DNA from: Escherichia coli
Lineage (GTDB): Bacteria > Pseudomonadota > Gammaproteobacteria > Enterobacterales > Enterobacteriaceae
Assembly: GCF_013315695.1 (NCBI RefSeq)
Contig: NZ_CP054353.1
Direction: 5' to 3' (one strand)
Length of the DNA: 64,000 bases
This document shows positions 40,112 through 64,000 of the stretch, piece by piece. Made by a program: the position numbers and the translations under genes. How positions within the stretch are numbered: position 1 is the first letter of the stretch; every line of letters begins with the position of its first letter. The notes beneath the pieces were generated by a model. That model saw nothing but the letters and a program-made list of their open reading frames with translations. It was not told the origin of the DNA and did no database searches.

Positions 40112-40137
40112 AAAAAGCGCCGCACGGCGCTTTTTTT
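40112..40137. terminator. Bidirectional rho-independent terminator between rpmE and yiiX
   Basis: aaaaaagcgccgcacggcgcttttttt: GC stem flanked by A and T runs. Confidence 0.7.
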
Positions 40138-40157
40138 GTGCCTGAATTTTGGTCGTA

Positions 40158-40766: not shown

Positions 40767-40825
40767 CGTTAAACGTCCATGTATGAAAAAAGCGGCTGGT
40801 TAACTCCGCGCCGCTCTTTTCCGCT

Positions 40826-41143: not shown

Positions 41144-41331
41144 GAGATACTTAATCCTCTTCGTCAATAAATTGAGACCAGACCACACAGTTAATGTGGG
41201 TACTGACCGTAAACCCGCATAGTTTACCGTACAGGCGCTACCGTGACATCGTGTAATGCACCTGTCGGCGTGATAATGCATATAATTTTAACGGCTATTT
41301 GGGATTTGCTCAATCTATACGCAAAGAAGTT

Positions 41332-41368
41332 TAGATGTCCAGATGTATTGACGTCCATTAACACAATG
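41332..41368. promoter_or_regulatory. Tandem met boxes (MetJ operator) in the metJ/metB divergent region
   Basis: agatgtcc agatgtat tgacgtcc: consecutive 8-bp repeats close to the AGACGTCT consensus. Confidence 0.7.
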
Positions 41369-41419
41369 TTTACTCTGGTGCCTGACATTTCACCGACCAA
41401 GCCCAGGGAACTTCATCAC

Positions 41420-42580: not shown

Positions 42581-42582
42581 AA

Positions 42583-45015: not shown

Positions 45016-46109
45016 TCCTGAGCCAGAGAAAGCAGTATTTGCGTAACGCGCCCTGCGGAAAGCGGGGTGCTGTGAGTAAATACTGCTTGTTTATGTAGCC
45101 AGTCGATAAAATGTCTGCTGGTTGCGAAAGAGAGCATTACAGCTTTGCTGTTATTTCCGCCCGTTAATGCACATACCATTTTACGATTTTTGCCCTGAAC
45201 CCAGAGTTGCCACTGATTTTTCCACCAGCCGTGATAAGTTTTTCCCTGAAAACGCCAGGGCGTATTATCGGTATAGTCAGCTATTTCCTCTTCAATAAAC
45301 CAAATTTCACCTTGCTGTTGGCGAAACAGTTCTGCCCAGGCCGTAATAATCGCACCTCTTAAAAAACACTCGTGTGAAATTACATGTGTTTTTACTGTAG
45401 GGAATAAAATATTCAGTACTCTAAAATGCCCGTGCGCTGTGATAACCGGACGCAGAATAACACCTTTAGCATTGCGTTTGAGCGCTGCGCTGCCATACTG
45501 AATTTCATCAAACTGACTGCGGCGTAGAAATTGTGCTTCGCGCATATCAACGCGTTGTACAATATTACTCTCGTGTAACTCTGGTTCTGCATTTCCTCTG
45601 TATCGATAATACAGACTTTCTCCAGCCTGATGCTGCGTGTAATTAGTAGAAAGATGAAGAATATTACCGCGAAGAGCATCAAAACTGATTAAAACATACA
45701 GTTTCTGCCCGCCGCTGGCTCCCTGAAATGGCACCAGAAGAGCAACCGTTTCGATTATTTCAGGAGGCGTTATTTCTTTCTGATATTGTTTAGGTGTCCA
45801 GACTTTTTTGCAGTTACGACATTGAATGCGTTGCGACCCCTGTGGATTGTGGCCATAACAAATCGTCTTTGTGCCATAACATACCGGGCAGAAATGACCT
45901 TTCTCAGTTGCAAAAGTAGATAAGTGAACTGACAACCAGTCACGAAATTGCTGTTCGTCAAACAACGGCGGGTAACTTCCACATGCCCGACAGTGCAGTG
46001 CCGGATAACCCAGTCGATAGTCTGGCCAGCTGTAATCTGTCGAAGTTGGCTGCCCTAAATTACGGCAACCAAACGACTTGCAGGCATTAATCGTAAACAG
46101 AGTCGACAT
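44979..46109 (-). CDS. Uncharacterized protein with two N-terminal CxxC...CxxC zinc-ribbon-like motifs; absent from the K-12 metL-metF junction
   Basis: 376-aa ORF; Cys pairs in CKSFGCRNLG ... CRACGS and CPVCYG ... CRNCKK; 3' end overlaps the metL 3' end by 37 bp (convergent); no confident family assignment. Confidence 0.5.
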   Translation of the reverse strand: MSTLFTINACKSFGCRNLGQPTSTDYSWPDYRLGYPALHCRACGSYPPLFDEQQFRDWLSVHLSTFATEKGHFCPVCYGTKTICYGHNPQGSQRIQCRNCKKVWTPKQYQKEITPPEIIETVALLVPFQGASGGQKLYVLISFDALRGNILHLSTNYTQHQAGESLYYRYRGNAEPELHESNIVQRVDMREAQFLRRSQFDEIQYGSAALKRNAKGVILRPVITAHGHFRVLNILFPTVKTHVISHECFLRGAIITAWAELFRQQQGEIWFIEEEIADYTDNTPWRFQGKTYHGWWKNQWQLWVQGKNRKMVCALTGGNNSKAVMLSFATSRHFIDWLHKQAVFTHSTPLSAGRVTQILLSLAQDYNNCARRLISD

Positions 46110-46235
46110 ATATCACCAACGATTTCACAAGGTCGTTGATTTTGTCCGGCAACGCTCCCTTGTGGATGTGATTGCTCTCACATAAATAATTCTTTCAGAA
46201 CGTAATGTAGCAATCCTTTATCTCACTGGAAGGGA

Positions 46236-47795
46236 TTGTTTATGAAAATTAAAATGCTTGCTGCGGGTATCGCATTAACACTGCCGTTTTGGGCTTGCGC
46301 CAAAGATGTCACCATCATTTATACCAACGACCTCCATGCACATGTAGAGCCTTATAAAGTGCCGTGGATTGCTGACGGTAAACGAGATATTGGCGGCTGG
46401 GCAAATATCACTACGCTTGTTAAACAAGAAAAAGCTAAAAACAAAGCGACCTGGTTTTTTGATGCGGGTGACTATTTTACCGGGCCGTATATCAGCAGCC
46501 TGACTAAAGGCAAGGCGATTATCGATATTATGAATACCATGCCATTCGATGCGGTCACTATAGGTAATCATGAATTTGATCACGGCTGGGACAATACGTT
46601 ATTACAGTTGAGTCAGGCAAAATTCCCGATTGTGCAGGGTAATGTTTTTTATCAGAACAGCAGTAAATCATTCTGGGATAAGCCCTATACCATCATTGAA
46701 AAAGACGGCGTGAAAATTGGCGTGATTGGTTTGCACGGTGTATTTGCCTTTAATGATACGGTATCTGCGGCAACGCGAGTGGGTATTGAGGCGCGTGATG
46801 AAATTAAATGGCTACAACGTTATATCGATGAACTCAAAGGCAAGGTTGATTTGACCGTTGCGCTGATTCACGAAGGTGTTCCGGCCCGCCAGTCCAGTAT
46901 GGGGGGCACAGATGTGCGCCGCGCACTGGATAAAGATATTCAGACGGCAAGTCAGGTGAAAGGGCTGGATATTTTGATCACCGGGCATGCACATGTGGGT
47001 ACGCCGGAACCGATTAAAGTCGGCAATACGCTCATCCTCTCCACTGACAGCGGTGGGATTGATGTCGGTAAACTGGTACTGGACTACAAAGAGAAGCCGC
47101 ATGATTTTACGGTGAAAAACTTCGAGCTTAAAACCATTTACGCCGACGAGTGGAAGCCCGATCCGCAAACAAAACAGGTGATCGACGGCTGGAATAAAAA
47201 GCTTGATGAAGTGGTGCAACAAACGGTCGCGCAATCGCCGGTTGAATTAAAACGTGCCTATGGTGAATCGGCTTCCCTCGGGAACCTGGCGGCTGATGCT
47301 TTACTGGTAGCGGCGGGTAAAAACACCCAATTGGCGTTAACCAACTCTGGCGGCATTCGCAATGAGATCCCCGCAGGGGCGATTACGATGGGCGGCGTCA
47401 TCAGTACCTTCCCGTTCCCCAACGAACTGGTGACGATGGAACTCACGGGTAAACAATTACGCAGTTTGATGGAACACGGCGCAAGTTTAAGTAATGGCGT
47501 TTTACAGGTATCGAAAGGCCTGGAAATGAAGTACGACAGCAGCAAACCGGTTGGTCAGCGGGTAATCACACTGACTCTGAATGGCAAACCCATTGAAGAT
47601 GCGACAGTTTATTCTATTGCCACCCAGAGTTTCCTTGCTGATGGTGGAGATGGTTTTACCGCCTTTACCGAAGGGAAAGCGCGTAACACAACGGGCGGTT
47701 ATTACGTTTATCACGCCGTGGTTGATTACTTCAAAGCGGGTAACACCATCACGGATGAACAGATCAACGGTATGCGCGTGAAAGATATCAAGTAA
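46236..47795 (+). CDS. Secreted bifunctional metallophosphatase / 5'-nucleotidase-like protein (UshA/CpdB family)
   Basis: 519-aa ORF; signal peptide [20 protein letters not shown]; calcineurin-like motifs DLHAH, GDYF, GNHEFD, GHAH; C-terminal 5'-nucleotidase-type motif NSGGIR. Confidence 0.7.
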
Positions 47796-48103
47796 AAGTA
47801 CGTATTGAGTTGATTCATTTGTTTGTTACCCGTTGATTTTGCAGATCCAGTATTCGGCCTACGCGAGGGCGCAGGCCGAATCAGATGCCTTAGCATCACC
47901 ATCCGGTGGCAGGACGTTGTTTTTCGAATAAGCCCAGGTGTCGCTGTGTTGTCAGAATATCAGTCAAAACGTGCGAGGTGGATTGCGCTATAGAGAAATC
48001 TTTTATCGCCTCTAATTAAGATGAGTTTTTTTCAACTTCCCTGATTTTTCCTCACCATCATTGGTCATTTTTCGGTTGACGCCCCTCGGCTTTTCCTTCA
48101 TCT

Positions 48104-48150
48104 TTACATCTGGACGTCTAAATGGATAGATGTTCACAACACAACATATA
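48104..48150 (+). promoter_or_regulatory. metF promoter met-box array
   Basis: acatctggacgtctaaatggatagatg contains GACGTCT-type repeats about 50 bp upstream of metF. Confidence 0.6.
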
Positions 48151-48173
48151 ACTACAAGCGATTGATGAGGTAA

Positions 48174-49067
<894 letters not shown>

Positions 49068-49289
49068 ATACTGTGACTTTTGTGAAAATCACACTGCGAT
49101 CACAAATTTTAAACAGAGCACAAAATGCTGCCTGAAATGCGAGTGAGAAAATAAGGTAGTCAGCCTCGTTTTCTCCCTCATTTCTTGAAGGATACGAATC
49201 TAAAACCCTTTTTTATAAAGTATTTGTCCGAAATCGGACATAATCAAAAAAGCTTAATTACGATCAATTTGATCTACATCTCTTTAACC

Positions 49290-51575
<2,286 letters not shown>

Positions 51576-51668
51576 TCTGACCTTCTTCAGCGACTGCCTT
51601 TCAGGCAGTCGCTGAAGTTTCTTTACCGGCGTATAGTGTCCACAGGAAAACTACACACTGGATCTCTC

Positions 51669-52574
51669 ATGTCTGCCGCAGGAAAGAGCAACCCACTGGC
51701 AATCAGTGGCCTGGTTGTGCTCACACTTATCTGGAGTTATAGCTGGATTTTCATGAAGCAAGTCACCAGCTACATCGGTGCCTTCGACTTTACCGCCTTA
51801 CGCTGCATTTTCGGCGCTCTCGTTTTATTCATCGTCCTTTTATTACGTGGTCGCGGAATGCGCCCGACACCGTTTAAATACACCTTAGCCATTGCCCTGT
51901 TACAAACCTGCGGGATGGTCGGCCTGGCGCAGTGGGCGCTGGTCAGCGGAGGAGCGGGGAAGGTGGCAATCCTGAGCTATACCATGCCGTTCTGGGTGGT
52001 GATTTTCGCCGCGTTGTTTCTCGGTGAACGCCTGCGACGTGGGCAATATTTCGCGATTCTGATTGCCGCTTTCGGCTTATTTTTGGTGTTGCAGCCGTGG
52101 CAACTCGATTTCTCTTCGATGAAAAGCGCCATGCTGGCAATCCTCTCCGGTGTGAGTTGGGGGGCGAGCGCGATTGTTGCTAAACGTCTGTATGCCCGCC
52201 ATCCGCGCGTGGATTTATTGTCGCTAACATCCTGGCAGATGCTGTATGCGGCGCTGGTGATGAGCGTGGTCGCTTTACTGGTGCCGCAACGTGAAATTGA
52301 CTGGCAACCCACCGTGTTCTGGGCGCTGGCCTACAGTGCGATTCTGGCGACAGCGCTGGCGTGGAGCTTATGGTTGTTTGTATTGAAAAACTTGCCTGCC
52401 AGTATTGCCAGCTTAAGCACACTGGCCGTTCCCGTTTGCGGCGTACTCTTTTCCTGGTGGCTGCTCGGTGAGAATCCGGGGGCCGTTGAAGGTAGCGGTA
52501 TTGTGCTGATTGTGCTGGCACTGGCGCTGGTGAGCCGTAAGAAAAAAGAAGCCGTCAGTGTAAAAAGGATCTGA
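51669..52574 (+). CDS. yijE: EamA/DMT-family inner-membrane transporter YijE
   Basis: ORF 51636..52574; start at [26 protein letters not shown] for 301 aa. Confidence 0.88.
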
Positions 52575-52600
52575 ATTTTTTCTTCATGTGGGGAGATCGC

Positions 52601-53218
52601 TTATTTAGCAAAATACCGATAGTGCCCCACCATCCGCCAGCTAAACAGTACATCTTCTTCCTGCGCGCCTGCGCCAATGTTATGTATCACCAGCGGCGTA
52701 CCGTCGCGGGCGAAGCCATCTGACACCACCCCAATATGTGCCAGCCCGTTATCTAATCGCCAGGAGACAATATCGCCCGATTGATAGTCACTGGGGTTCT
52801 TGCTGGTGGGGCGTGTTTTATCGTGGCGGGTAAACCAGGTTTCCAGATTAGGCACCCGACGGTGATCGATGTTGCTGTCCGGGCGCTTTAACTGCCATTT
52901 TTGCGGGTACGCAGCAAAATTCTTCGCCATATCTTCGTGCACCAGTTTCTGCAAATCGACCTTCTGGCTGCGCAATGCACGGATCACCACATCGGAACAT
53001 ACGCCGCGTTCTTGCGGGACATCACCGCCAGGATAGGTAAGCTGCACATACGCCGGATCGTAAAATAGCGTGCTGCCGATTTGCTGTCTGGCACCGTCTG
53101 CGATGGCAAGGTTGGTGTTGGCCTGGATCTGTACCACGGTTGGTGGAACGGCGGGAGATTTTAAGGAGTGGCTGGTAAATGCCGTTAGCAGGCTGACCAG
53201 CACCAGTGAAGCTTTCAT
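52601..53218 (-). CDS. yijF: DUF1287-family periplasmic protein YijF
   Basis: 205-aa ORF with signal peptide MKASLVLVSLLTAFTSHS. Confidence 0.85.
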   Translation of the reverse strand: MKASLVLVSLLTAFTSHSLKSPAVPPTVVQIQANTNLAIADGARQQIGSTLFYDPAYVQLTYPGGDVPQERGVCSDVVIRALRSQKVDLQKLVHEDMAKNFAAYPQKWQLKRPDSNIDHRRVPNLETWFTRHDKTRPTSKNPSDYQSGDIVSWRLDNGLAHIGVVSDGFARDGTPLVIHNIGAGAQEEDVLFSWRMVGHYRYFAK

Positions 53219-53365
53219 CTGGTTCGTCCGTGAAAATAAGAGTCACAGATTCGACCTTCCGGGCTAACGATTGTTCTGTAGAGAAAATGTCCAGAAGCGG
53301 ATAAAAAATTCCTGAACAACGTGGGAGTTTCAGACGGGTGATAACGTATAAAAAGTGCTCGAACA

Positions 53366-53471
53366 GTCCCCTCTCCCCTTTGGGGAGAGGGTTAGGGTGA
53401 GGGGAACAGGCCAACTCCGGGGCGAATATTTACCCTCACCCCGACCCTCTCCCTGAAAGGGCGAGGGGGAA
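53366..53471. repeat. GC-rich nested inverted-repeat intergenic element (BoxC/RSA-like enterobacterial repeat)
   Basis: ccctctcccc-ttt-ggggagaggg then gggtgagggg ... ccctcaccccgaccctctccc; the track ORF 53022..53414 lies across it. Confidence 0.55.
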
Positions 53472-53516
53472 AAACATGCCCGCAGTGACGAGTGAGCCAC
53501 TTTGCCTGCACTCTCA

Positions 53517-53541
53517 AACTCCCGGACAAGCCGGGAGTTTG
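53517..53541 (-). terminator. Terminator-like hairpin downstream of gldA
   Basis: aaactcccgg-acaa-gccgggagttt, just 3' of the gldA stop; T-tract weak. Confidence 0.4.
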
Positions 53542-53548
53542 GAGTAGG

Positions 53549-54652
53549 TTATTCCCACTCTTGCAGGAAACGCTGACCATACTGGTCGGCTACCAGCAGT
53601 GCGGCGTAAACCTGATCTGGCGTCGCGCCGCCAGGCATGTTGTGGATGGTTTCACCTTCTGCACATGCCGCTTCTGCCACAATTCGCATTTTCGCCGGGA
53701 CATCTTCTTTAATATCCAGTTGAGCGAGAGTTATTGGCAAACCTACCGCATGGCTAAGCGCAGCTACGGTTTCGATTTCCTCCACCGGCGCGTTTTCCAG
53801 CACCAGCTGCGTCAGCGTACCGAATGCTACTTTTTCACCATGATAATAGTGATGCGCGTCCGGGATAGCGGTCAGGCCGTTATGTACCGCGTGTGCCGCC
53901 GCCAGCCCGCCGCTTTCAAAACCAACACCGCTCAAATAGGTGTTCGCTTCAATCACGCGTTCCAGCGCCGGAGTCACTACATGCTGTTCGGCGGCAAGCA
54001 TCGCTTTTTCGCCTTCTTCCAGCAGAGTGTTGTAGCACAGTTCTGCCAGTGCCAGCGCCGCCTGGGTGCACTTGCCGCCCGCCATGGTGGTCGCGCCGCT
54101 ACGAGAGCAAGCACGCGCTTCAAACCAGGTTGCCAGCGCATCGCCGATACCCGCCGCTAACAGACGTGCAGGTGCGCCAGCGACGATTTTGGTGTCGACA
54201 ATGACCATATTCGGGTTATTTGGCAACATCAGATAGCGGTCAAATTCACCCTCATCGGTGTAGATAACAGACAATGCGCTGCACGGTGCGTCGGTAGAGG
54301 CGATAGTCGGTGCGATCGCTACCGGAACACCCATGAAATGTGCCAGTGCTTTGGCAGTATCGAGAGTTTTTCCGCCACCGATACCGAGAATTGCGCCACA
54401 CTGCGCAGTTTCCGCGATGCCACGCAGACGGTCGATCTCATTTTGCGAACATTCACCGCCAAACGGCGCAATTTCTACTACCAGTCCAGCATCTTTAAAG
54501 CTTTTCTCGACAGTGGATTGAGCAAAACCTAAAACAAATTTGTCACCCACCACTAACCAGCGTTCTGCCAGCGGCTTCAGGTATTCGCCCAGACGATTAA
54601 TCACATCAGCGCCCTGGATGTATTTACCCGGTGATTGAATAATGCGGTCCAT
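53549..54652 (-). CDS. gldA: Glycerol dehydrogenase
   Basis: ORF 53549..54691 trimmed to [29 protein letters not shown] for 367 aa. Confidence 0.95.
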
Positions 54653-54662
54653 AATTGCTCCT

Positions 54663-55325
54663 TTAGAGATGAGTAGTGCCAAATGCGGCATTCCAGTCGT
54701 GTTCGAACTTCTCTATAGCTGACTCTACCGCAGGGGTGTTGAGCATTTGTTGCGCTACATCTAAGGGCAGGGTGATGGATTCACATCCTGCCAGTAAACA
54801 GTCCAGCGCCTGACGCGGCGTTTTAAAGCTGGCTGCCAGCACCATGCTTTCTGGCGCGTGCATTTCCAACAGCGCTTGCAGCTCCTGAACCGTACGAATG
54901 CCGTCACCGCCCTGGGCGTCGACGCGGTTAACATACGGAGCAACATATTTTGCCCCTGCCAGCGCGGCTAATAACCCTTGTGCGGCGCTATATACAGCGG
55001 TGCCAAGTGTAGTAATACCCTCTTTTTTCAGCATTTTAATGGCGGCAAGACCTTCGGAAGTTACCGGGATTTTCACCACAATGCCCGGAATGGCGTCGCG
55101 CAGGCGCTTCGCTTCTTCCACCATACCCTGCGCGTCACGACTCATGGTCTGAGCAAACAAAATACCCTCATCACCAATCGCTTTTTGCAGACGCGGCAGC
55201 ACTTCCCATATGGACTCCTTGCTGGCAGCGATAATGCTCGGGTTAGTTGTCACCCCGGCAATCGGGAATATGCGTGCCAGACGTTCGACTTCTGCGACGT
55301 TAGCGGTGTCCAGATACAGTTCCAT
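54663..55325 (-). CDS. fsaB: Fructose-6-phosphate aldolase 2
   Basis: 220-aa [38 protein letters not shown] (transaldolase-like). Confidence 0.94.
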
Positions 55326-55336
55326 GATGTTTCCTT

Positions 55337-57838
55337 TTACAGTTCCAGTTCATGTTGCAGCAGGCTGGCGATAGCGTCGGCAGAGGCGGCGTTAACCAGC
55401 GCGTTACGGAATTCTTCGTGCATGATGCGACGAGCGAGGCGCGAGAAAATGCGCATGTGCTGATCGCCCGCAGCATGTTTGTTCAGGGTTAACATAATGA
55501 TGAATTGCGCTTCATCATCGCCCCAGCGCACCGGCGCTGCCAGACGCGCCACGCTGATGGTGGATTGCTCAATGTGTTCTGATTTGCTGTGGGGAATGGC
55601 AAAACTAAAGCCCAGACCGGTAGAGAAAACGGCCTCGCGCGCCCACAAGTCGGCTTCCAGTTTACGCGGATAGCGACAGCGGCCCGCCAGCAGCAGGTTA
55701 TCGGTCATGCCTTTGAGCACTTCTTCTTTGCTGCGCCAGTCGCTTTCCAGTGTGATGCACTCGGCGGTGACCAGCGGTGCGTCTTGTTGGGTCATGCGGA
55801 ATTGCGCCAGCAGGTGTTCCACTTCCAGCGAAGTACGGCAGGCCATTGCCTGGTTGAGCAACTTGCGGCACTCACGGCTATCAAGTTGCGCCATCCGCGC
55901 TTTCGCCGCCGGAATTGATGGTGCGCTCATGCTGAGTTCATCCAGCCCTAAGCCGACCAGCAACGGCAGCACGGAACCTTTCGCTCCTAGTTCACCGCAC
56001 AGACCAATCCATTTGCCCTGGCGATGCACCGCCTGCACGGCGTAATCGAGCGCCCGCAGGAATGCCGGATTCAGGCTGTTATAGTGACGAGTAACCTTAG
56101 CGTTATCGCGATCCACTGCCAGCAGATATTGCGTCAGGTCATTACTACCAATACTAAAGAAATCAATCTCTTCACAGCATTGATCGATGATGAACATCAC
56201 CGACGGCACTTCCAGCATGATGCCGAGCTGGATTTTCTCATCAAACGGAATGTGTTCGTTACGCAGTTGCTGTTTTGCTTCCGCCAGTTTTTCTTTCACC
56301 CATAAGATCTCTTCCATTGAGGAGATCATCGGGATCATGATTTTCAGGCTGCCGTGAGCGGAGGCACGGAGAATCGACCGTAGTTGTGTGGTAAATAACG
56401 ACGCGTACTCTTCATAAATACGCACGGCGCGATAACCGAGGAACGGGTTTGCCTCTGCGGGAATGTTCAGATAATCAACGGGTTTGTCACCGCCAATATC
56501 CATAGTGCGCACAATAATGCTGCGTCCGTTGGCGGACTCCAGCGCCTGACAAAAAATGTTGTACAGCTCGCTTTCGCCCGGTGCACTGGTGCGATCCATA
56601 TAGAGCATTTCAGTGCGGAATAAACCAACGCCTTCCGCACCATTGCCGAATGCGGCCTGCGCTTCCACGGAGTGAGCGATGTTAGCGGCAATTTCAATGC
56701 GGATACCGTCAGCGGTACGGGCTTGTTGGGTCAGCCAGACACGCTGTTGCTCACGCAGGGCGTCCTGTACGCGGGCTTCTTGCTGATAATAACGGGCCAC
56801 GGCTTCCCCTGGCTCAACCACAATCGCCCCTGCGTTGCCGTCGATATAAATCGTTTGATGCTGCCACGGAGTAAGGGCATCAATATCCACACCTACCAGC
56901 GTCGGAATGTTGAACGAACGGGCAAGGATCACCGTATGTGAGGTGGTGCCGCCACTTTTCAGTAATAGACCTTTGAGGTGACTTTTATCCAGTTCGAGGA
57001 ACTGGCTGGGGGTCAGTTCATCAGCCATACAAATGGCGGGCTGCGTCAGTTTGCCCGGTGCCGGGAAGCGTTGCTCACCGTAGATTTGCTGGAGTAACTG
57101 GAAGCAGACGTCGCGTACGTCCAGAGCACGTTCTTGCAGGTAGCTGCTGCTGGAACGGGCGAACTCTTCGCAAAAGTGATTCGCACTGGCAACAATCGCT
57201 TCGGCGCAGCTTAATCCGGCGCTGACACCTGCCAGTAAATGTTCGCGCAGGGAAGTATCGCCAGCCAGGGATCGGTGCGCTTCCAGAATCGCGCTGGTAG
57301 CACCGTCGCTATCCAGCAGACGAAACTCTATGTTTTTCAGTACCAGCGTCAGACCGTTTTCCAGTGCGGATTGTTCGGCGTCAACGCCTTTGGCTGCGGG
57401 AAGATTACCCAGCGCATTGAGATCTAAAGAAGAGATCGGCGTCAGAATGCCGCCTGCGCTACCGCTGCACACGGTGCGGGCGCGGATAATTTGCGGATTC
57501 AGATTGGTCAGTGAAACCGGCAGTGGTTCCAGTTCGTCAGATTTAACTTCCGCCAGCGGCGCATCGCAGTGGGGGAATTCATCGCGCAGCCATTGGCTTA
57601 AACGCTGGTGCGCTTCCTGTTCGTCGGCCCCGGAAATCAGTAACTGGCAGTTATCGCCCGCCAGCGTGTCGGTGCCAATCAGCGCAAGGGCGCTTTTGGC
57701 GTTGCCCTTGCGGTCAGTGCGCAGGTTATGCCACTCAATTTGTGATGAAAAAGTATTACACAGCGTTTCAACGTGGCTTGCCGGACGCGCATGGACGCCG
57801 TTAGGTAGCTCACAAATAAATTCCACAATCAGGGCCAT
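55337..57838 (-). CDS. ptsA: Multiphosphoryl transfer protein PtsA (EI/HPr/EIIA-like fusion)
   Basis: 833-aa ORF; N-terminal HPr-like segment followed by an enzyme-I-like PEP-utilising domain. Confidence 0.9.
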
Positions 57839-58146
57839 TGCCTTTCTCCCGGTACGGTTTTCTGTTTACAGGATAAGAGCGCACGGTAACGGCCTGCCAT
57901 GTGACAAATCTGCCAAAAGCTGGACAAATGTAATGTAACCGTCAATTTGCGACGCGTCTCACAAGACGCCGTTTTGCGGCATGCTTCCGGATTATCGCAA
58001 GTTATGAGGCGGATCGCATTTTTGTACTGATATTACAAAAGTCCAGTAAATGGCCTTTTTATCCACTGTTTGCTCCGCCTGCGATTGCCTATTGTTTCTT
58101 CCATCAAAAATATGGACATGGGCTTTCGCAAGCCCGGGAGCAGCTT

Positions 58147-58992
58147 ATGAATGAGTTGGTGCAGATCCTGAAAAATACCCGTCAGCATTTAATGACGGGC
58201 GTTTCACACATGATTCCCTTCGTGGTATCGGGCGGTATTTTGCTGGCGGTTTCCGTCATGTTGTATGGCAAAGGCGCAGTGCCGGATGCCGTAGCCGATC
58301 CGAATCTGAAAAAACTGTTTGATATCGGCGTTGCAGGTTTGACGCTGATGGTGCCTTTCCTCGCCGCTTACATCGGTTATTCCATTGCAGAACGTTCTGC
58401 GCTGGCTCCATGCGCTATCGGTGCTTGGGTTGGTAACAGCTTTGGCGCGGGCTTCTTTGGTGCACTGATCGCCGGGATTATCGGCGGCATTGTGGTGCAT
58501 TACCTGAAGAAAATTCCGGTGCATAAAGTTCTGCGCTCGGTGATGCCAATCTTCATCATTCCTATCGTCGGCACACTGATTACCGCTGGCGTCATGATGT
58601 GGGGGCTGGCGACGCTGATTGGTCGTAAAAATTTCTCCGCAGAAGAGCGCGAAACCGGCAAGGCGGCACTGGTGATGGGCTGTGTTGGCGTTACTGAAGG
58701 GGCGATTCCTTTCGCCGCTGCCGATCCGCTGCGTGTTATTCCTTCCATCATGGTCGGTTCAGTTTGTGGTGCAGTAACTGCGGCGCTGGTCGGTGCGCAG
58801 TGCTATGCAGGCTGGGGTGGTCTGATTGTGCTGCCGGTGGTTGAAGGCAAGCTGGGTTATATCGCAGCAGTGGCTGTCGGAGCAGTGGTGACGGCTGTTT
58901 GTGTGAACGTGCTGAAAAGTCTGGCGCGTAAAAATGGGTCTTCGACTGATGAAAAAGAAGACGACCTGGATTTGGATTTTGAAATTAATTAA
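58147..58992 (+). CDS. frwC: PTS fructose-like EIIC component FrwC, internally deleted allele
   Basis: 281-aa ORF; aligns to the FrvB IIC domain in this window but lacks the central segment that includes the AFDMGGP motif; K-12 FrwC remembered as 359 aa. Confidence 0.75.
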   Translation: MNELVQILKNTRQHLMTGVSHMIPFVVSGGILLAVSVMLYGKGAVPDAVADPNLKKLFDIGVAGLTLMVPFLAAYIGYSIAERSALAPCAIGAWVGNSFGAGFFGALIAGIIGGIVVHYLKKIPVHKVLRSVMPIFIIPIVGTLITAGVMMWGLATLIGRKNFSAEERETGKAALVMGCVGVTEGAIPFAAADPLRVIPSIMVGSVCGAVTAALVGAQCYAGWGGLIVLPVVEGKLGYIAAVAVGAVVTAVCVNVLKSLARKNGSSTDEKEDDLDLDFEIN

Positions 58993-59006
58993 TTGAGGAA
59001 CGAGCC

Positions 59007-59327
59007 ATGACGAAAATTATTGCAGTAACCGCGTGTCCATCTGGTGTTGCCCATACCTATATGGCGGCAGAGGCGCTGGAAAGTGCCGCGAAAGCGAAAG
59101 GCTGGGAAGTGAAAGTAGAAACCCAGGGCTCGATTGGTCTGGAAAATGAACTGACTGCGGAAGACGTGGCGAGCGCCGATATGGTGATTCTGACCAAAGA
59201 TATCGGCATCAAGTTTGAAGAGCGTTTTGCTGGCAAGACCATCGTGCGCGTCAACATCAGCGACGCGGTAAAACGCGCTGATGCCATTATGAGCAAAATT
59301 GAAGCTCACCTGGCACAAACCGCTTAA
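59007..59327 (+). CDS. frwB: PTS fructose-like EIIB component FrwB
   Basis: 106-aa ORF MTKIIAVTACPSGVAHTYMAAEALESAAKAKGWEVKVETQGSIG. Confidence 0.93.
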   Translation: MTKIIAVTACPSGVAHTYMAAEALESAAKAKGWEVKVETQGSIGLENELTAEDVASADMVILTKDIGIKFEERFAGKTIVRVNISDAVKRADAIMSKIEAHLAQTA

Positions 59328-59377
59328 GTTCTTATCCCGCCCGTAAGGGCGGGTTCGCTTTCCCACAGGAGTTCCTC

Positions 59378-61675
59378 ATGACGAATCGTATCTCTCGCCT
59401 CAAAACTGCACTGTTTGCCAATACCCGTGAAATCTCGCTGGAGCGGGCGCTGCTTTATACCGCCAGCCATCGGCAAACCGAAGGCGAACCGGTGATATTG
59501 CGCCGGGCGAAAGCAACAGCGTATATCCTTGAACATGTTGAAATTTCGATTCGTGATGAAGAACTGATTGCCGGTAACCGTACGGTGAAACCGCGCGCCG
59601 GAATTATGTCGCCGGAAATGGACCCTTACTGGCTGCTGAAAGAGCTGGATCAATTCCCGACGCGTCCGCAGGACCGCTTTGCTATCAGCGAAGAAGATAA
59701 ACGTATCTACCGCGAAGAGTTGTTCCCGTACTGGGAAAAACGTTCGATGAAAGATTTCATTAACGGGCAGATGACGGATGAAGTAAAAGCCGCGACCAGC
59801 ACGCAGATTTTCAGCATCAACCAGACGGATAAAGGCCAGGGGCACATTATTATTGATTACCCGCGCCTGCTGAATCACGGGCTGGGTGAGCTGGTAGCGC
59901 AAATGCAGCAACATTGTCAGCAACAGCCGGAGAATCACTTTTATCAGGCCGCGTTGTTACTGCTGGAAGCCTCGCAGAAACACATTTTGCGTTACGCCGA
60001 ACTGGCGGAAACGATGGCGGCAAACTGCACAGATGCCCAGCGTCGCAAAGAGCTGCTGACTATTGCGGAGATCTCCCGCCATAACGCGCAACATAAGCCG
60101 CAGACGTTCTGGCAGGCGTGCCAGTTATTCTGGTACATGAACATCATTCTGCAATACGAATCCAACGCCAGTTCGCTGTCTTTAGGGCGCTTCGACCAGT
60201 ATATGTTGCCGTTCTATCAGGTATCATTAACCCAGGGCGAAGATCCGGCGTTCCTGAAAGAACTGCTCGAATCTTTATGGGTGAAATGCAACGACATCGT
60301 GCTGTTGCGCTCCACCAGTAGCGCGCGTTATTTCGCCGGTTTCCCGACCGGCTATACCGCACTGCTCGGCGGGTTAACTGAGAACGGACGTAGCGCGGTG
60401 AACGTACTTTCGTTCCTCTGTCTCGACGCCTATCAAAGTGTGCAATTACCGCAACCGAACCTGGGGGTGCGCACTAACGCCTTGATCGACACGCCGTTCC
60501 TGATGAAAACCGCCGAAACCATTCGCCTTGGCACCGGTATTCCGCAAATCTTCAACGATGAAGTGGTGGTGCCAGCGTTCCTCAACCGTGGCGTTTCGCT
60601 GGAAGATGCACGCGACTATTCCGTAGTGGGCTGTGTGGAATTATCTATTCCCGGCAGAACCTACGGCTTGCATGACATCGCGATGTTTAATCTGCTGAAA
60701 GTGATGGAAATCTGCCTGCATGAAAATGAAGGCAATGCTGCGCTGACTTATGAAGGTTTACTGGAGCAGATCCGCGCCAAGATCAGCCACTACATCACCC
60801 TGATGGTTGAGGGCAGCAATATTTGCGATATCGGTCACCGTGACTGGGCACCTGTACCGCTGCTCTCATCGTTTATCAGCGATTGTCTGGAAAAAGGCCG
60901 CGATATTACCGATGGCGGTGCGCGTTATAACTTCTCCGGCGTACAGGGGATCGGTATCGCCAACCTGAGCGATTCTCTCCATGCGTTGAAAGGTATGGTT
61001 TTTGAGCAACAGCGTTTAAGTTTTGACGAATTGCTGTCGGTATTAAAAGCCAACTTCGCAACGCCAGAAGGCGAAAAAGTCCGTGCTCGCTTAATTAACC
61101 GCTTCGAGAAATACGGTAACGATATCGACGAGGTGGATAACATCAGCGCCGAACTGTTACGCCACTACTGCAAAGAAGTGGAAAAATACCAGAACCCGCG
61201 CGGCGGCTACTTCACGCCGGGATCGTATACCGTTTCTGCTCACGTCCCGTTGGGATCGGTGGTTGGCGCGACGCCAGACGGTCGTTTTGCCGGGGAACAA
61301 CTGGCAGACGGTGGCTTGTCTCCCATGCTGGGCCAGGACGCACAAGGACCAACGGCGGTACTGAAATCAGTCAGCAAGCTCGATAACACGCTGCTTTCTA
61401 ACGGTACGTTGCTGAACGTGAAATTCACTCCGGCGACCCTGGAAGGTGAAGCGGGATTACGCAAACTGGCTGACTTCTTACGGGCATTTACCCAGCTTAA
61501 GTTACAACACATTCAGTTTAACGTGGTGAACGCCGACACGTTGCGGGAAGCGCAACAGCGCCCACAAGATTATGCCGGGCTGGTGGTGCGCGTTGCCGGA
61601 TACAGCGCCTTCTTTGTCGAACTGTCGAAGGAGATCCAGGATGACATCATCCGCCGGACAGCGCATCAGCTGTAA
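59378..61675 (+). CDS. pflD: Pyruvate-formate-lyase-like glycyl radical enzyme PflD
   Basis: 765-aa ORF; glycyl-radical motif near the C-terminus (VVRVAGYSAFFVEL). Confidence 0.94.
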   Translation: MTNRISRLKTALFANTREISLERALLYTASHRQTEGEPVILRRAKATAYILEHVEISIRDEELIAGNRTVKPRAGIMSPEMDPYWLLKELDQFPTRPQDRFAISEEDKRIYREELFPYWEKRSMKDFINGQMTDEVKAATSTQIFSINQTDKGQGHIIIDYPRLLNHGLGELVAQMQQHCQQQPENHFYQAALLLLEASQKHILRYAELAETMAANCTDAQRRKELLTIAEISRHNAQHKPQTFWQACQLFWYMNIILQYESNASSLSLGRFDQYMLPFYQVSLTQGEDPAFLKELLESLWVKCNDIVLLRSTSSARYFAGFPTGYTALLGGLTENGRSAVNVLSFLCLDAYQSVQLPQPNLGVRTNALIDTPFLMKTAETIRLGTGIPQIFNDEVVVPAFLNRGVSLEDARDYSVVGCVELSIPGRTYGLHDIAMFNLLKVMEICLHENEGNAALTYEGLLEQIRAKISHYITLMVEGSNICDIGHRDWAPVPLLSSFISDCLEKGRDITDGGARYNFSGVQGIGIANLSDSLHALKGMVFEQQRLSFDELLSVLKANFATPEGEKVRARLINRFEKYGNDIDEVDNISAELLRHYCKEVEKYQNPRGGYFTPGSYTVSAHVPLGSVVGATPDGRFAGEQLADGGLSPMLGQDAQGPTAVLKSVSKLDNTLLSNGTLLNVKFTPATLEGEAGLRKLADFLRAFTQLKLQHIQFNVVNADTLREAQQRPQDYAGLVVRVAGYSAFFVELSKEIQDDIIRRTAHQL

Positions 61676-62519
61676 CGTTGTGGAAACGCGCCGCGATGAT
61701 GTGGCGCGCATTTTCAACATTCAGCGTTATTCACTGAATGACGGCGAGGGCATTCGTACGGTGGTCTTTTTTAAAGGCTGTCCGCATCTTTGCCCGTGGT
61801 GTGCTAATCCGGAGTCGATCTCCGGCAAAATCCAGACGGTACGCAGAGAGGCGAAATGTCTGCACTGTGCGAAATGTTTGCGTGATGCGGATGAATGCCC
61901 GTCCGGGGCGTTTGAACGGATTGGTCGCGATATCAGCCTTGACGCGCTGGAACGGGAAGTGATGAAAGATGACATTTTCTTTCGCACGTCCGGCGGCGGC
62001 GTCACGCTTTCTGGCGGCGAAGTGTTAATGCAGGCGGAGTTTGCTACCCGTTTTTTACAGCGGCTTCGGTTGTGGGGTGTGTCATGCGCCATCGAAACTG
62101 CCGGAGACGCGCCGACCAGCAAGTTGTTACCGCTGGCGAAATTGTGCGATGAAGTGTTGTTCGATTTAAAAATTATGGACGCGACTCAGGCGCGGGATGT
62201 GGTGAAGATGAACCTGCCACGCGTGCTGGAGAATCTGCGTTTGCTGATTAGTGAGGGCGTCAACGTGATCCCGCGTTTACCGCTGATCCCTGGTTTCACG
62301 CTCAGCCGGGAGAATATGCAGCAGGCGCTGGACGTGCTGATCCCGCTGAATATCAGGCAGATCCATCTGTTACCGTTTCATCAGTACGGCGAACCGAAAT
62401 ACCGCCTGCTGGGGAAAACATGGTCGATGAAAGAGGTGTCTGCGCCGTCGTCAGCCGATGTGACAACGATGCGCGAAATGGCAGAACGGGCCGGATTTCA
62501 GGTTACCGTGGGAGGTTAA
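61641..62519 (+). CDS. pflC: Glycyl-radical-enzyme activating enzyme PflC (radical SAM)
   Basis: ORF 61572..62519; start at MTSSAGQRISCNVVETRRDD for 292 aa; CPHLCPWCANPE radical-SAM motif; overlaps pflD 3' end. Confidence 0.92.
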   Translation: MTSSAGQRISCNVVETRRDDVARIFNIQRYSLNDGEGIRTVVFFKGCPHLCPWCANPESISGKIQTVRREAKCLHCAKCLRDADECPSGAFERIGRDISLDALEREVMKDDIFFRTSGGGVTLSGGEVLMQAEFATRFLQRLRLWGVSCAIETAGDAPTSKLLPLAKLCDEVLFDLKIMDATQARDVVKMNLPRVLENLRLLISEGVNVIPRLPLIPGFTLSRENMQQALDVLIPLNIRQIHLLPFHQYGEPKYRLLGKTWSMKEVSAPSSADVTTMREMAERAGFQVTVGG

Positions 62520-62520
62520 A

Positions 62521-62862
62521 ATGGCATACCTGGTGGCAGTAACCGCCTGCGTAAGCGGCGTGGCGCATACTTATATGGCGGCGGAACGGCTGGAAAAGTT
62601 GTGCCTGTTAGAGAAGTGGGGCGTCAGCATTGAAACTCAGGGCGCGCTGGGAACGGAGAATCGTTTAGCGGACGAGGATATCCGTCGGGCGGATGTTGCG
62701 CTGTTAATTACGGATATCGAGCTTGCCGGTGCTGAGCGATTTGAACATTGCCGCTATGTGCAATGCAGCATCTACGCTTTCCTGCGTGAGCCGCAGCGGG
62801 TGATGAGCGCGGTGCGCAAAGTGCTTTCTGCGCCGCAGCAAACCCATCTTATTCTGGAGTAG
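62521..62862 (+). CDS. frwD: PTS fructose-like EIIB component FrwD
   Basis: 113-aa ORF MAYLVAVTACVSGVAHTYMAAERLEKL. Confidence 0.92.
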   Translation: MAYLVAVTACVSGVAHTYMAAERLEKLCLLEKWGVSIETQGALGTENRLADEDIRRADVALLITDIELAGAERFEHCRYVQCSIYAFLREPQRVMSAVRKVLSAPQQTHLILE

Positions 62863-63700
62863 TCGGTTTTTCTGTCAGTTGGCTGTGGTACTGCCGACGA
62901 TATTCCGACGGCGAGCGTTCGGTATTTTTACGAAACAGACGGCAGAAGTAGTTGCTGTCGACAAAGCCGCAGGCGTGCGCCACTTCTTTTACCTTCAGGT
63001 CATAGCCTTTCAATAACGTCTTAGCGTGCTCCAGTCGCGTGTGATTCAGGTATTCGTTAAAACCAATGGCCCCCGTTTTTTGAAACAGGTGCGAGAGGTA
63101 ATTTGGCGAAATATAGAATGCCTGTGCGACAGATTCGCGGGTAAGCGCGGAGGCATAGCGTTCGTCGATATAATCGCGAATAGCTTCGAATAGAGCCTGG
63201 CTACGTGAGGCGGTCTGGATTTGGCTGCCGAGCAAATCGCGGCAGTGGCTAAGCAGGCTGGCGACGATAAGCCTTGCCGTTTGCTGCTCCTGCGGCTGCA
63301 TTTGCATTTCATTGAGCGTTTGTAGCAGAAAAGAACCAATGCGCGGGCCGCGTCGGGCGACGTGTTGCTTCGCCAGATTTTGATATTGTTTGCCATCCCA
63401 TTGCACGACGCTGAAGCCGAGTTGCTGTTTGCCAAACAGCACGCTAAAGGTAGTGGCGGGGGCTTGCCATTGTGGAAAATTCCAGCCACCAGCGGCAACG
63501 TACAGCACATCGCCGGGAACTAACGTTGCTCCAGCGCCGGTATCAACAAACTCACCTTCCAGCACAATTTCCAGACGTGGAAAATCGACCTGATACGCAA
63601 GATCGGGCACCGGGCCGTTACTGCTGGCAAAGTAAATCTGGCGCAGGGACAGCGGGCCGTTGATCAGGCGGGAGAGCAGATAGCTGACGTCGTGATACAT
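62849..63700 (-). CDS. yijO: AraC-family transcriptional regulator YijO
   Basis: 283-aa ORF; C-terminal AraC HTH; overlaps frwD 3' end (convergent). Confidence 0.88.
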   Translation of the reverse strand: MYHDVSYLLSRLINGPLSLRQIYFASSNGPVPDLAYQVDFPRLEIVLEGEFVDTGAGATLVPGDVLYVAAGGWNFPQWQAPATTFSVLFGKQQLGFSVVQWDGKQYQNLAKQHVARRGPRIGSFLLQTLNEMQMQPQEQQTARLIVASLLSHCRDLLGSQIQTASRSQALFEAIRDYIDERYASALTRESVAQAFYISPNYLSHLFQKTGAIGFNEYLNHTRLEHAKTLLKGYDLKVKEVAHACGFVDSNYFCRLFRKNTERSPSEYRRQYHSQLTEKPTTPE

Positions 63701-63747
63701 GTTATTCCCTTAGGTATGTAGACGGGAAAACAGTAACTGGCATTATT

Positions 63748-63775
63748 AAAAAAGGCCACCTGAAAAGTGTGGCCT
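63748..63775 (-). terminator. Rho-independent terminator downstream of eptC
   Basis: ggccac-ctgaaaagt-gtggcc inverted repeat followed on the minus strand by T6. Confidence 0.6.
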
Positions 63776-63848
63776 GAGGGGAGTTCGATGTAAACATTGC
63801 GGCAGTATCGCATCCGGCAAATAGCGCCAGACGCGATACAAAGGTCAT

Positions 63849-64000
63849 TTACTGATTACCTACCTGGTCGCCATATGGCAGCGTGTCGTAATCGATCAGC
63901 GCGTTTTTCTTGTACGGGTTACCAATCCAGCGGGTAGTTTCTTTGAACTGCGGATTCACCACTGAACGGGTTGGATCGTAACCGTCGTAAGATAAGCCCG
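63849..64000 (-). CDS. eptC: Phosphoethanolamine transferase EptC (YijP), C-terminal 49 codons only (gene starts beyond the window end)
   Basis: Minus-strand frame reads ...GYDPTRSVVNPQFKETTRWIGNPYKKNALIDYDTLPYGDQVGNQ then stop at 63849..63851; K-12 synteny after yijO. Confidence 0.65.
   Translation of the reverse strand, partial: GLSYDGYDPTRSVVNPQFKETTRWIGNPYKKNALIDYDTLPYGDQVGNQ

What the first reader, a model, noticed from the sequence alone, without database searches (positions are those of the whole stretch)
58147..58992. frwC carries an in-frame deletion that removes the conserved EIIC core
FrwC here is 281 aa. Aligned against the FrvB IIC domain in this same window, FrwC matches on both sides but lacks the segment equivalent to FrvB ...LHFLNTIPPSMKFAAAFLVGAMLAFDMGGPINKTAWFF...PPVAAG. 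The junction falls near residue 154 (about 58600..58620, ...AGVMMWGL|ATLIGRKNF...). The loss is about 75 codons (about 78 if K-12 FrwC is 359 aa as I remember) and in frame, so a truncated membrane protein could still be made but would lack a functional permease core. The frw/pfl cluster is already cryptic, and this allele suggests further decay in this lineage.
Basis: partly seen in the sequence, partly recalled or inferred. Interest (0 to 1): 0.45.

Follow-up and report, generated by a model that had tools for sequence, protein, structure and literature searches.

The report
In-frame 234-bp deletion in frwC
One clone of E. coli has lost 78 codons from the middle of the sugar-permease gene frwC through slippage between two 8-base repeats, which almost certainly disables this one transporter; it is a real but ordinary loss-of-function allele.

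Summary
The ORF at 58147..58992 encodes a 281-aa FrwC. The normal gene is 1080 nt, or 359 aa. Exactly 234 bp (78 codons, residues 153-230) are missing, in frame. The window is identical to E. coli MSB1_4I. Its closest complete relative, isolate AF3, is identical over 6.3 kb of flank but has an intact gene. There the deleted block is bounded by two perfect copies of GGGGCTGG exactly 234 bp apart, and the window keeps one copy (58602..58609). This is a single slippage deletion between short direct repeats. It is not an assembly error, because the exact 281-aa protein occurs on about 280 independent contigs. Only 1 of 5426 complete genomes carries it, and the 4 closest complete genomes do not. 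A confident AlphaFold model matches the PtsG and MalT folds. On that model the deletion removes the amphipathic half of the TM5 helix, the first re-entrant hairpin with the invariant D-x-G-G-P-x-N-K motif, and most of TM6. The GVTE motif is kept. Loss of function is inferred, not tested. The "cryptic, decaying cluster" framing is not supported. frwC is nearly universal in E. coli and under strong purifying selection (dN/dS 0.025). Every other gene of the cluster here is full length, and PflD now has an assigned role in anhydro-sugar fermentation. Interest is low.

The parts
58147..58992 (+). frwC deletion allele: 281-aa ORF, equal to the 359-aa FrwC lacking residues 153-230. It has the same start and stop codons as the intact gene.
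   Evidence: 100% identical to NZ_LR898874.1 (MSB1_4I), where PGAP calls it 'PTS EIIC component' WP_021569748.1 and does not flag it as a pseudogene.
58602..58609 (+). Deletion junction: the single retained copy of the 8-bp direct repeat GGGGCTGG.
   Evidence: The intact sister allele (L003, isolate AF3) has exactly two copies, at 3153-3160 and 3387-3394, 234 bp apart. Sequence on both sides of the junction is otherwise identical.
58147..58602 (+). Retained N-terminal part, codons 1-152: the predicted scaffold half, with helices 11-40, 52-98, 102-120 and the first 20 residues of the long helix 133-175 (the TM5 equivalent).
   Evidence: AlphaFold model of intact FrwC, pLDDT 90.6. These residues keep pLDDT of about 90 in the model of the deleted protein.
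58687..58713 (+). Retained GVTEGAIPF motif (residues 181-189 here, 259-267 in intact FrwC). It contains the family-invariant Glu (E262) and Pro (P266) and corresponds to the second re-entrant hairpin (HP2).
   Evidence: Assigned to HP2 by analogy with G295-I-T-E298 of PtsG (PMC11393339).
59007..59327 (+). frwB, PTS IIB subunit, 106 aa, intact. Translation of downstream genes is not disturbed because the deletion is in frame.
   Evidence: NF007783 matched 1-106/106; annotation.
59378..61675 (+). pflD, glycyl-radical enzyme, 765 aa, intact.
   Evidence: NF007437 matched 1-765/765. Function per PMC12441222.
61641..62519 (+). pflC, glycyl-radical activating enzyme, 292 aa, intact.
   Evidence: NF007483 matched 1-292/292.
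62521..62862 (+). frwD, second PTS IIB-like subunit, 113 aa, intact.
   Evidence: NF007747 matched 2-114/114.
55337..57838 (-). ptsA (frwA; annotated ptsP in RefSeq): multidomain EI/HPr/IIA-Fru-like protein, 833 aa, intact, divergently transcribed from frwC.
53549..55325 (-). gldA (53549..54691 as the longest ORF; the profile match starts at residue 14) and fsaB (54663..55325). Both are intact and are the downstream enzymes of the anhydro-sugar pathway.
   Evidence: NF047954 matched 1-365/365 and NF009296 matched 1-219/220.
It is intact (485-aa ORF, profile 1-483/483).

Best explanation
A single spontaneous deletion arose in a recent ancestor of strain MSB1_4I. The cause was slipped-strand mispairing (short-homology, microhomology-mediated deletion) between two perfect 8-bp direct repeats, GGGGCTGG, that lie 234 bp apart inside frwC. 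One repeat copy and the 226 bp between the copies were lost. Because 234 is a multiple of 3, the reading frame, the stop codon and the downstream genes frwB-pflD-pflC-frwD are untouched. A 281-aa membrane protein can still be made. That protein lacks the horizontal amphipathic extension of TM5 that links the scaffold and transport domains. It also lacks the first re-entrant hairpin, HP1, which carries the family-invariant D191-x-G193-G-P-x-N-K198 motif, and 18 of the 24 residues of TM6. In the structurally related glucose permease, HP1 and TM6 form half of the sugar-binding pocket, and the TM5 extension is the hinge of the elevator movement. Removing one membrane-spanning helix (TM6) also leaves the C-terminal third (HP2, TM7, TM8) on the wrong side of the membrane relative to TM5. 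The most likely result is a null allele of the Frw PTS permease, with the rest of the cluster still expressible. The likely phenotype is loss of Frw-dependent uptake and phosphorylation of its substrate, probably 1,5-anhydromannitol or a related anhydro-sugar given the linkage to pflD, fsaB and gldA. The allele has persisted in a sub-clone, so its cost is small in that clone's niche. Shown here: the deletion, its exact ends, the repeats, its single origin and its distribution. Inferred: the slippage mechanism, the structural assignment, the loss of function and the substrate.
For: Deletion and size:
- establish the 234-bp, 78-codon gap.

Single event:
- Isolate AF3 (L003) is identical to the window over 3152 bp to the left and 3179 bp to the right of the gap, with 0 mismatches.
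- AF3 is about 100% identical over 24.5 kb.

Repeats:
- GGGGCTGG occurs exactly twice in the 6.5-kb AF3 locus, at the two deletion ends and 234 bp apart.
- Only one copy remains in the window.
- By my own estimate, a random deletion would show 8 bp or more of junction homology with probability of order 1e-5 to 1e-4.

Real allele:
- The exact protein is on 280 contigs in several archives and is listed in 607 index blocks.
- An ENA metagenome scaffold is identical to the window over 6846 bp.

The long form is ancestral:
- Orthologues in Cronobacter, Yersinia, Hafnia, Serratia and Klebsiella are 358-360 aa.
- The deleted segment holds invariant D191, G193 and K198, and near-invariant P157, G185, G194, P195 and N197.

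Structure:
- The AlphaFold model of intact FrwC has pLDDT 90.6.
- Foldseek matches it to E. coli PtsG IIC (8QSR, TM 0.63), V. cholerae IIC (9LGT, 0.64) and bcMalT (6BVG, 0.65).
- The order of elements is as described for PtsG in PMC11393339: TM5 plus amphipathic helix, then HP1, TM6, HP2, TM7 and TM8. There the binding site is formed by HP1a/b, HP2b, TM6 and the TM7-alpha3 loop.
- The model of the deleted protein has pLDDT below 50 at residues 153-162, and its mean falls to 84.3.

Tolerated loss:
- A Salmonella frwC deletion mutant shows no growth defect in anaerobic LB and no fitness defect in mouse ileum (PMC11974825).

Pathway link:
- PMC12441222.
Against: - No functional data exist for this allele. 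Loss of function is inferred from conservation and from a predicted structure.
- The mapping of FrwC helices onto PtsG elements rests on the order of elements and a TM-score of about 0.63. It is not a residue-level alignment, and sequence searches of the PDB with the protein or its profile find no EIIC.
- The substrate of the Frw PTS was not verified. The primary paper (Ma et al. 2024) could not be read, and the review says only that a PTS performs the first step.
- The scaffold half and the GVTE motif survive, so residual or altered activity cannot be strictly excluded.
- PGAP does not flag the gene as a pseudogene.
Confidence: 0.82

Rival explanations
1. The deletion is adaptive rather than neutral. 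In this reading, loss of the Frw permease was selected in this clone, for example to avoid toxic accumulation of anhydro-sugar phosphates, or to resist a phage, bacteriocin or contact-dependent toxin that uses FrwC as its inner-membrane entry protein. The in-frame nature would preserve pflDC expression.
For: - The allele is on about 280 contigs, against 912 for the exact parental protein, so it has spread appreciably.
- Many other independent in-frame frwC deletions and duplications, and FrwC::PflD fusions, exist in E. coli.
- Other PTS IIC proteins are known entry factors for phage or CDI toxins. This is my own knowledge and was not tested here.
Against: - Only 1 of 5426 complete genomes has the allele.
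- Only 15 of 5405 genomes with a frwC match lack a single match covering at least 80% of the gene.
- dN/dS of 0.025 shows the species as a whole preserves FrwC.
- No control gene was examined, so the number of deletion alleles may simply reflect the hundreds of thousands of E. coli assemblies in the collection.
- A deletion is in frame with probability 1/3 by chance.
- Only in-frame variants appear as near-full-length proteins, which is an ascertainment bias.
Confidence: 0.1
2. The 281-aa protein is still a working, or differently working, membrane protein. It might be a permease with altered specificity, or a scaffold-only subunit that dimerises with and modulates another EIIC.
For: - The reading frame is intact, and the N-terminal scaffold domain and the GVTE motif are retained.
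- It still scores above the NCBIfam cut-offs: 538.9 against 426 bits, and 194.4 against 157.55.
- It is not annotated as a pseudogene.
Against: - It lacks the invariant DxGGPxNK hairpin and most of TM6.
- Removing one membrane span creates a topology conflict for the C-terminal third.
- AlphaFold gives pLDDT below 50 at the junction.
- No family member among 49 diverse homologues lacks this segment.
Confidence: 0.05
3. The gap is an assembly or sequencing artefact in the MSB1_4I genome.
For: Only one complete genome shows it.
Against: - The exact protein is recorded from NCBI, JGI/IMG, ENA and Logan on 280 contigs, with at least four separate GenBank accessions.
- An independent metagenome scaffold is identical to the window over 6.8 kb.
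- The ends coincide with a perfect direct repeat, which is a biological signature.
Confidence: 0.01
4. The short form is ancestral, and other E. coli gained a 234-bp insertion.
For: None.
Against: - Orthologues in other genera are 358-360 aa and contain the segment.
- The segment carries family-invariant residues.
- 5390 of 5426 E. coli genomes have a frwC match covering at least 80% of the 1080-nt gene, so they do not carry this deletion.
Confidence: 0

Closest known systems
E. coli K-12 FrwC (fructose-like PTS permease IIC component 2, 359 aa; NCBIfam NF007787)
   Same: It is the same gene at the same locus (ptsA / frwC-frwB-pflD-pflC-frwD). The retained 281 residues are identical to the sister allele of isolate AF3 and differ from K-12 at one position, I149V.
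   Different: It lacks residues 153-230, so the profile match splits into two stretches.
Glucose-superfamily EIIC permeases with solved structures: E. coli IICB-Glc/PtsG (8QSR), V. cholerae IIC-Glc (9LGT), B. cereus MalT (6BVG)
   Same: The predicted fold of intact FrwC matches them with TM-score 0.63-0.65. The order of elements is the same: scaffold TMs, TM5 plus amphipathic helix, HP1, TM6, HP2 with a G-[IV]-T-E motif, TM7 and TM8. An elevator mechanism is expected by analogy.
   Different: Sequence identity is only 12-16%, with no sequence-level hit. FrwC belongs to the Fru family (TIGR01427) and has separate IIB subunits. The window allele lacks the amphipathic helix, HP1 and TM6, which these permeases need for substrate binding.
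Spontaneous deletions between short direct repeats (replication slippage / RecA-independent short-homology deletion, classically described for lacI in E. coli; cited from my own knowledge)
   Same: A perfect 8-bp repeat lies at both ends in the parent. One copy is retained, with no filler DNA and no other change.
   Different: Nothing unusual was found. No hairpin or palindrome that could bring the repeats together lies in the deleted DNA (fold z-score +0.57).
Other natural frwC length variants in E. coli
   Same: They are also in-frame internal deletions of the same gene. Examples are deletions of residues 114-141, 155-192, 228/230-252/254, 251-289 and 63-100. There are also in-frame insertions or duplications (417-506 aa) and FrwC(1-312)::PflD(476-765) fusions.
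   Different: They have different end points and occur on different strain backgrounds. The 78-codon deletion here is the largest internal one among the variants listed, and it has the highest contig count (280 against 47 or fewer).

Membership tests
PTS fructose-family EIIC (TIGR01427) / FrwC equivalog (NF007787) | Whole-protein score above the curated cut-off | tested here: met
   NF007787 scores 538.9 bits (cut-off 426) and TIGR01427 scores 194.4 bits (cut-off 157.55).
PTS fructose-family EIIC (TIGR01427) / FrwC equivalog (NF007787) | Contiguous, full-length match to the profile, meaning a complete IIC domain | tested here: not met
   The match comes in two stretches, the first covering protein 1-155 and profile 1-155 of 359. 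Intact FrwC matches 1-359 in one stretch.
PTS fructose-family EIIC (TIGR01427) / FrwC equivalog (NF007787) | Conserved hairpin motif (A)FDMGGPxNK, with invariant D191, G193 and K198 | tested here: not met
   The motif lies at residues 190-198 of intact FrwC, inside the deleted block 153-230.
PTS fructose-family EIIC (TIGR01427) / FrwC equivalog (NF007787) | Conserved G-[IV]-T-E-G-A-I-P-F motif with the invariant Glu | tested here: met
   GVTEGAIPF is present at residues 181-189 of the 281-aa protein (window 58687..58713).
PTS fructose-family EIIC (TIGR01427) / FrwC equivalog (NF007787) | Genomic context with cognate IIB and EI/HPr/IIA partners | tested here: met
   ptsA, frwB and frwD flank the gene and are full length.
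PTS fructose-family EIIC (TIGR01427) / FrwC equivalog (NF007787) | PEP-dependent transport and phosphorylation activity | not testable with these tools
   Needs uptake or phosphorylation assays.
Short-direct-repeat (slippage) deletion | Identical short repeat at both deletion end points in the undeleted parent, with one copy left at the junction | tested here: met
   GGGGCTGG lies at L003 3153-3160 and 3387-3394. A single copy lies at window 58602..58609.
Short-direct-repeat (slippage) deletion | No inserted or filler DNA and no accompanying rearrangement | tested here: met
   There are 0 mismatches in 3152 bp plus 3179 bp of flank against AF3.
Short-direct-repeat (slippage) deletion | Independence from RecA, and origin during replication | not testable with these tools
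   Mechanistic genetics would be required.
Decaying or cryptic locus (pseudogenisation) | Frameshift, premature stop or other disruptions in the gene and its neighbours | tested here: not met
   frwC stays in frame, and gldA, fsaB, ptsA, frwB, pflD, pflC and frwD all match their profiles end to end.
Decaying or cryptic locus (pseudogenisation) | Relaxed selective constraint on the gene in the species | tested here: not met
   dN/dS is 0.025 between K-12 and AF3, with 25 synonymous and 2 non-synonymous codon differences. The gene is present in 5405 of 5426 complete genomes.

The most novel reading that the evidence does not exclude
frwC may be a recurrent target of natural inactivation in E. 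coli. The evidence would be the many independent in-frame deletions, duplications and frwC::pflD fusions. On this reading, the 78-codon allele was positively selected in a human-associated clone because losing the Frw permease is an advantage. The advantage could be escape from a phage or toxin that enters through FrwC, or avoidance of toxic anhydro-sugar phosphates. Keeping the frame would preserve expression of the downstream glycyl-radical enzyme genes.
Probability: 0.06. Interest if true: 0.45.

Novelty: new member of a known kind. Interest (0 to 1): 0.15.

Why it matters
The practical value is modest. The allele is a clean, naturally occurring, non-polar knockout of the Frw PTS permease, and near-isogenic intact relatives are available (AF3, MS 21-1). 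That pairing could be used to test whether FrwBCD is the uptake system feeding the recently described PflD/FsaB/GldA anhydro-sugar fermentation pathway. The allele also serves as a lineage marker for a sub-clone. It is a reminder that annotation pipelines pass in-frame internal deletions as normal genes; PGAP calls this one 'PTS EIIC component' and does not flag it as a pseudogene. It does not reveal a new mechanism or system.

Tried and rejected
- **Pfam scan.** PF02378 (PTS_EIIC) hits neither the deleted nor the intact FrwC at E <= 0.01, so Pfam could not be used to define the lost part. NCBIfam was used instead.
- **Sequence search of the PDB.** Searches with the protein and with the family profile found no EIIC. 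Structural mapping therefore relied on AlphaFold plus Foldseek.
- **The repeat finder on the intact gene.** The tool did not list the GGGGCTGG pair. The pair was verified by direct comparison and by pattern search.
- **Hairpin-assisted slippage.** Inverted repeats in the deleted DNA are weak, and the fold is no better than shuffled sequence (z = +0.57). This idea was rejected.
- **Assembly artefact.** Rejected.
- **Insertion in other strains rather than deletion here.** Rejected.
- **Literature on strain MSB1_4I.** Nothing relevant was found.
- **Primary paper.** Ma et al. 2024 (JACS) is not held in the library, so the PTS-substrate link rests on a review and on gene linkage.
- **Sequence type and phylogroup.** The window holds none of the seven standard MLST loci (adk, fumC, gyrB, icd, mdh, purA, recA), by my reading of its gene content, so neither was determined.
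- **Control gene for frwC length variants.** No control was run to judge whether the number of frwC length variants is unusual.

Full report
**1. The observation**

The window holds an ORF at 58147..58992 (+) that encodes 281 aa. The surrounding 1.4 kb is 100% identical to E. coli MSB1_4I (NZ_LR898874.1, human rectal swab, Australia). In that record PGAP annotates the ORF as 'PTS EIIC component', WP_021569748.1, and does not flag it as a pseudogene.

In nearly all other complete E. coli genomes the same stretch spans 1635 bp instead of 1401 bp, and the match is split into two pieces. In a K-12-derived strain, frwC is 1080 nt, or 359 aa. Direct comparison shows one gap of exactly 234 nt, or 78 codons. 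A global protein alignment places it at residues 153-230.

**2. How the deletion arose**

The closest intact allele is in isolate AF3 (NZ_OZ547117.1, blood culture, UK). It shares the same PtsA and PflD protein accessions as MSB1_4I. It is identical to the window over 3152 bp to the left and 3179 bp to the right of the gap, and about 100% identical over 24.5 kb.

In AF3 the octamer GGGGCTGG occurs exactly twice in 6.5 kb, at 3153-3160 and 3387-3394, which is 234 bp apart and exactly at the two deletion ends. The window keeps a single copy at 58602..58609. This is the classic footprint of slipped-strand (short-homology) deletion: one repeat and the intervening DNA are lost and nothing else changes.

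About nine pairs of exact repeats of 8 bp or longer are expected by chance in any 1080-nt sequence, and 17 repeat families were listed. The repeat pair itself is therefore unremarkable. What is informative is that both end points coincide with such a pair.

In K-12 the left copy reads GGGGCTTGG, so the in-register homology there is only 3 bp. Two synonymous changes in this lineage's allele created the perfect repeat, which is also present in MS 21-1 and SMS-3-5. No hairpin or palindrome in the deleted DNA could have assisted the slippage. Being in frame is a 1-in-3 accident of the spacing.

**3. Real allele and its distribution**

Only 1 of 5426 complete genomes carries the junction. Only five complete genomes belong to this lineage, judged by 99.9% or greater identity over window 39500..64000, and the other four (AF3, MS 21-1, OZ546925, OZ546911) have intact frwC.

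The exact 281-aa protein is nevertheless recorded on 280 contigs from NCBI, JGI/IMG, ENA and Logan, with several GenBank accessions, and it is listed in 607 index blocks. One ENA metagenome scaffold is identical to the window over 6846 bp. The exact parental 359-aa protein is on 912 contigs.

The deletion is therefore genuine and heritable, and it marks a sub-clone rather than the whole lineage. The 90%-identity cluster of the deleted protein has a single member, which is consistent with one origin.

**4. What was lost**

I aligned 49 stand-alone Fru-family IIC proteins that are 31-91% identical to FrwC. The alignment has 11 invariant columns and 15 columns that are at least 90% conserved.
- Three invariant columns (D191, G193, K198) fall in the deleted block.
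- Five near-invariant columns (P157, G185, G194, P195, N197) also fall there. All of these except P157 lie in or next to the motif (A)FDMGGPxNK.
- The invariant E262 and P266 of the GVTEGAIPF motif are retained.

An AlphaFold model of intact FrwC is confident (pLDDT 90.6, pTM 0.78). Its helices are 11-40, 52-66/68-98, 102-120, 133-175, 177-190, 195-210, 213-236, 243-258, 261-270, 272-293 and 313-342. Foldseek matches the model to E. coli PtsG IIC (8QSR, TM 0.63), V. cholerae IIC-Glc (9LGT, 0.64) and bcMalT (6BVG, 0.65).

The PtsG structure paper (PMC11393339) describes the following architecture:
- Scaffold helices TM1-5.
- An amphipathic helix that is a horizontal C-terminal extension of TM5 and links the scaffold and transport domains.
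- Then, in order, HP1, TM6, HP2, TM7 and TM8.
- A binding site built from HP1a/b, HP2b, TM6 and the TM7-alpha3 loop, in which E298 of the GITE motif is a principal ligand.

By the order of elements, anchored on the GVTE/GITE motif, FrwC 133-175 corresponds to TM5 plus the amphipathic helix, 177-210 to HP1a/b, 213-236 to TM6 and 243-270 to HP2. The deletion therefore removes the amphipathic linker, all of HP1 and 18 of the 24 residues of TM6. This mapping is an inference from a predicted structure, because sequence searches of the PDB find no EIIC.

Removing one true membrane span leaves HP2, TM7 and TM8 topologically mismatched with TM5. The AlphaFold model of the 281-aa protein keeps a confident N-terminal half, but pLDDT falls below 50 at residues 153-162. 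I conclude, by inference, that the permease is non-functional.

**5. Context**

All other genes of the cluster in the window match their NCBIfam equivalog profiles end to end: gldA, fsaB, ptsA, frwB, pflD, pflC and frwD. Because the deletion is in frame, it should have no polar effect on frwB-pflD-pflC-frwD.

The cluster is no longer simply 'cryptic'. A 2025 review (PMC12441222) summarises Ma et al. 2024 (JACS 146:26187) as follows. YbiW and PflD are glycyl-radical enzymes that cleave 1,5-anhydroglucitol-6-phosphate and 1,5-anhydromannitol-6-phosphate, respectively, to 1-deoxyfructose-6-phosphate. Both pathways begin with PTS phosphorylation of the polyol. I could not read the primary paper. 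Assigning FrwBCD as that PTS is my inference from gene linkage.

Other evidence on the gene's status:
- In Salmonella, frwC is induced in the mouse gut, and a frwC deletion mutant shows no growth defect in anaerobic LB and no fitness defect in the ileum (PMC11974825). Loss can therefore be tolerated.
- Across E. coli, frwC is found in 5405 of 5426 complete genomes, with at least 80% coverage in 5390.
- K-12 and AF3 differ by 25 synonymous and 2 non-synonymous codons, giving dN/dS of 0.025.

The gene is maintained by selection in the species. This allele is an isolated lesion, not part of a general decay.

**6. Verdict**

This is an ordinary short-repeat slippage deletion that produces a probable null allele of a known PTS permease in one sub-clone of E. 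coli. It is a new member of a known kind and of low general interest. Its main use is as a natural, non-polar frwC knockout with near-isogenic intact relatives.

Noted in passing: E. coli carries many other frwC length variants and frwC::pflD fusions. Without a control gene I cannot say whether that number is unusual.

Noticed in passing
Proteins P0008-P0086 (E. coli / Shigella frwC variants); corresponds to window 58147..58992: Many other independent in-frame internal deletions of frwC exist in public E. coli and Shigella assemblies. Examples are deletions of residues 114-141 (331 aa, up to 47 contigs), 155-192 (321 aa), 228/230-252/254 (334 aa), 251-289 (320 aa, including a Shigella boydii record), 63-100 and 76-111. 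No control gene was examined, so it is unknown whether this is more than the background for a 1-kb gene in a very large collection.
   Followed up: partly
Proteins P0056, P0059, P0060, P0061; corresponds to window about 59080..60800: These are FrwC(1-312)::PflD(451 or 476-765) fusion proteins of 598-625 aa. They imply in-frame deletions of about 2 kb that remove the 3' end of frwC, all of frwB and the first 450-475 codons of pflD. P0061 is on 23 contigs, including one of 4.25 Mb.
   Followed up: partly
Proteins P0002, P0003, P0004: These are FrwC variants of 506, 475 and 417 aa in which the full 359-aa FrwC aligns end to end with large internal insertions. They are probably in-frame tandem duplications.
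   Followed up: no
NZ_CP142708.1 (E. coli T28R), hits H40 and H220: Only the first 292 nt of frwC are present. The annotated feature runs straight into an AraC-family regulator, which suggests a large deletion from frwC through to yijO in that strain.
   Followed up: no
window 58147..58992 and L003 2698..3777: Pfam PTS_EIIC (PF02378) does not hit E. coli FrwC, intact or deleted, at E <= 0.01. FrvB in the same window hits at 2.6e-33, and FrwC orthologues about 87% identical carry precomputed PF02378 hits. A Pfam-only annotation would miss this gene.
   Followed up: no
L001 3688..3710 compared with L003 3138..3160 (left end of the deleted block): In K-12 the left repeat reads GGGGCTTGG. Two synonymous differences (GGC TTG in K-12, GGG CTG in this lineage) give this lineage the perfect, in-frame 8-bp repeat. 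In K-12 the best repeat pairing (TGGGGCT) is offset by one base, so the equivalent slippage would delete 235 bp and shift the frame.
   Followed up: partly
window 39500..64000: Apart from four very close relatives, the next-best complete genomes are only 98.6% identical. In those genomes the region matching window 39500..64000 spans about 30-34 kb instead of 24.5 kb and includes an rhsC / RHS core-protein element, which indicates an rhs element inserted there that this lineage lacks.
   Followed up: no
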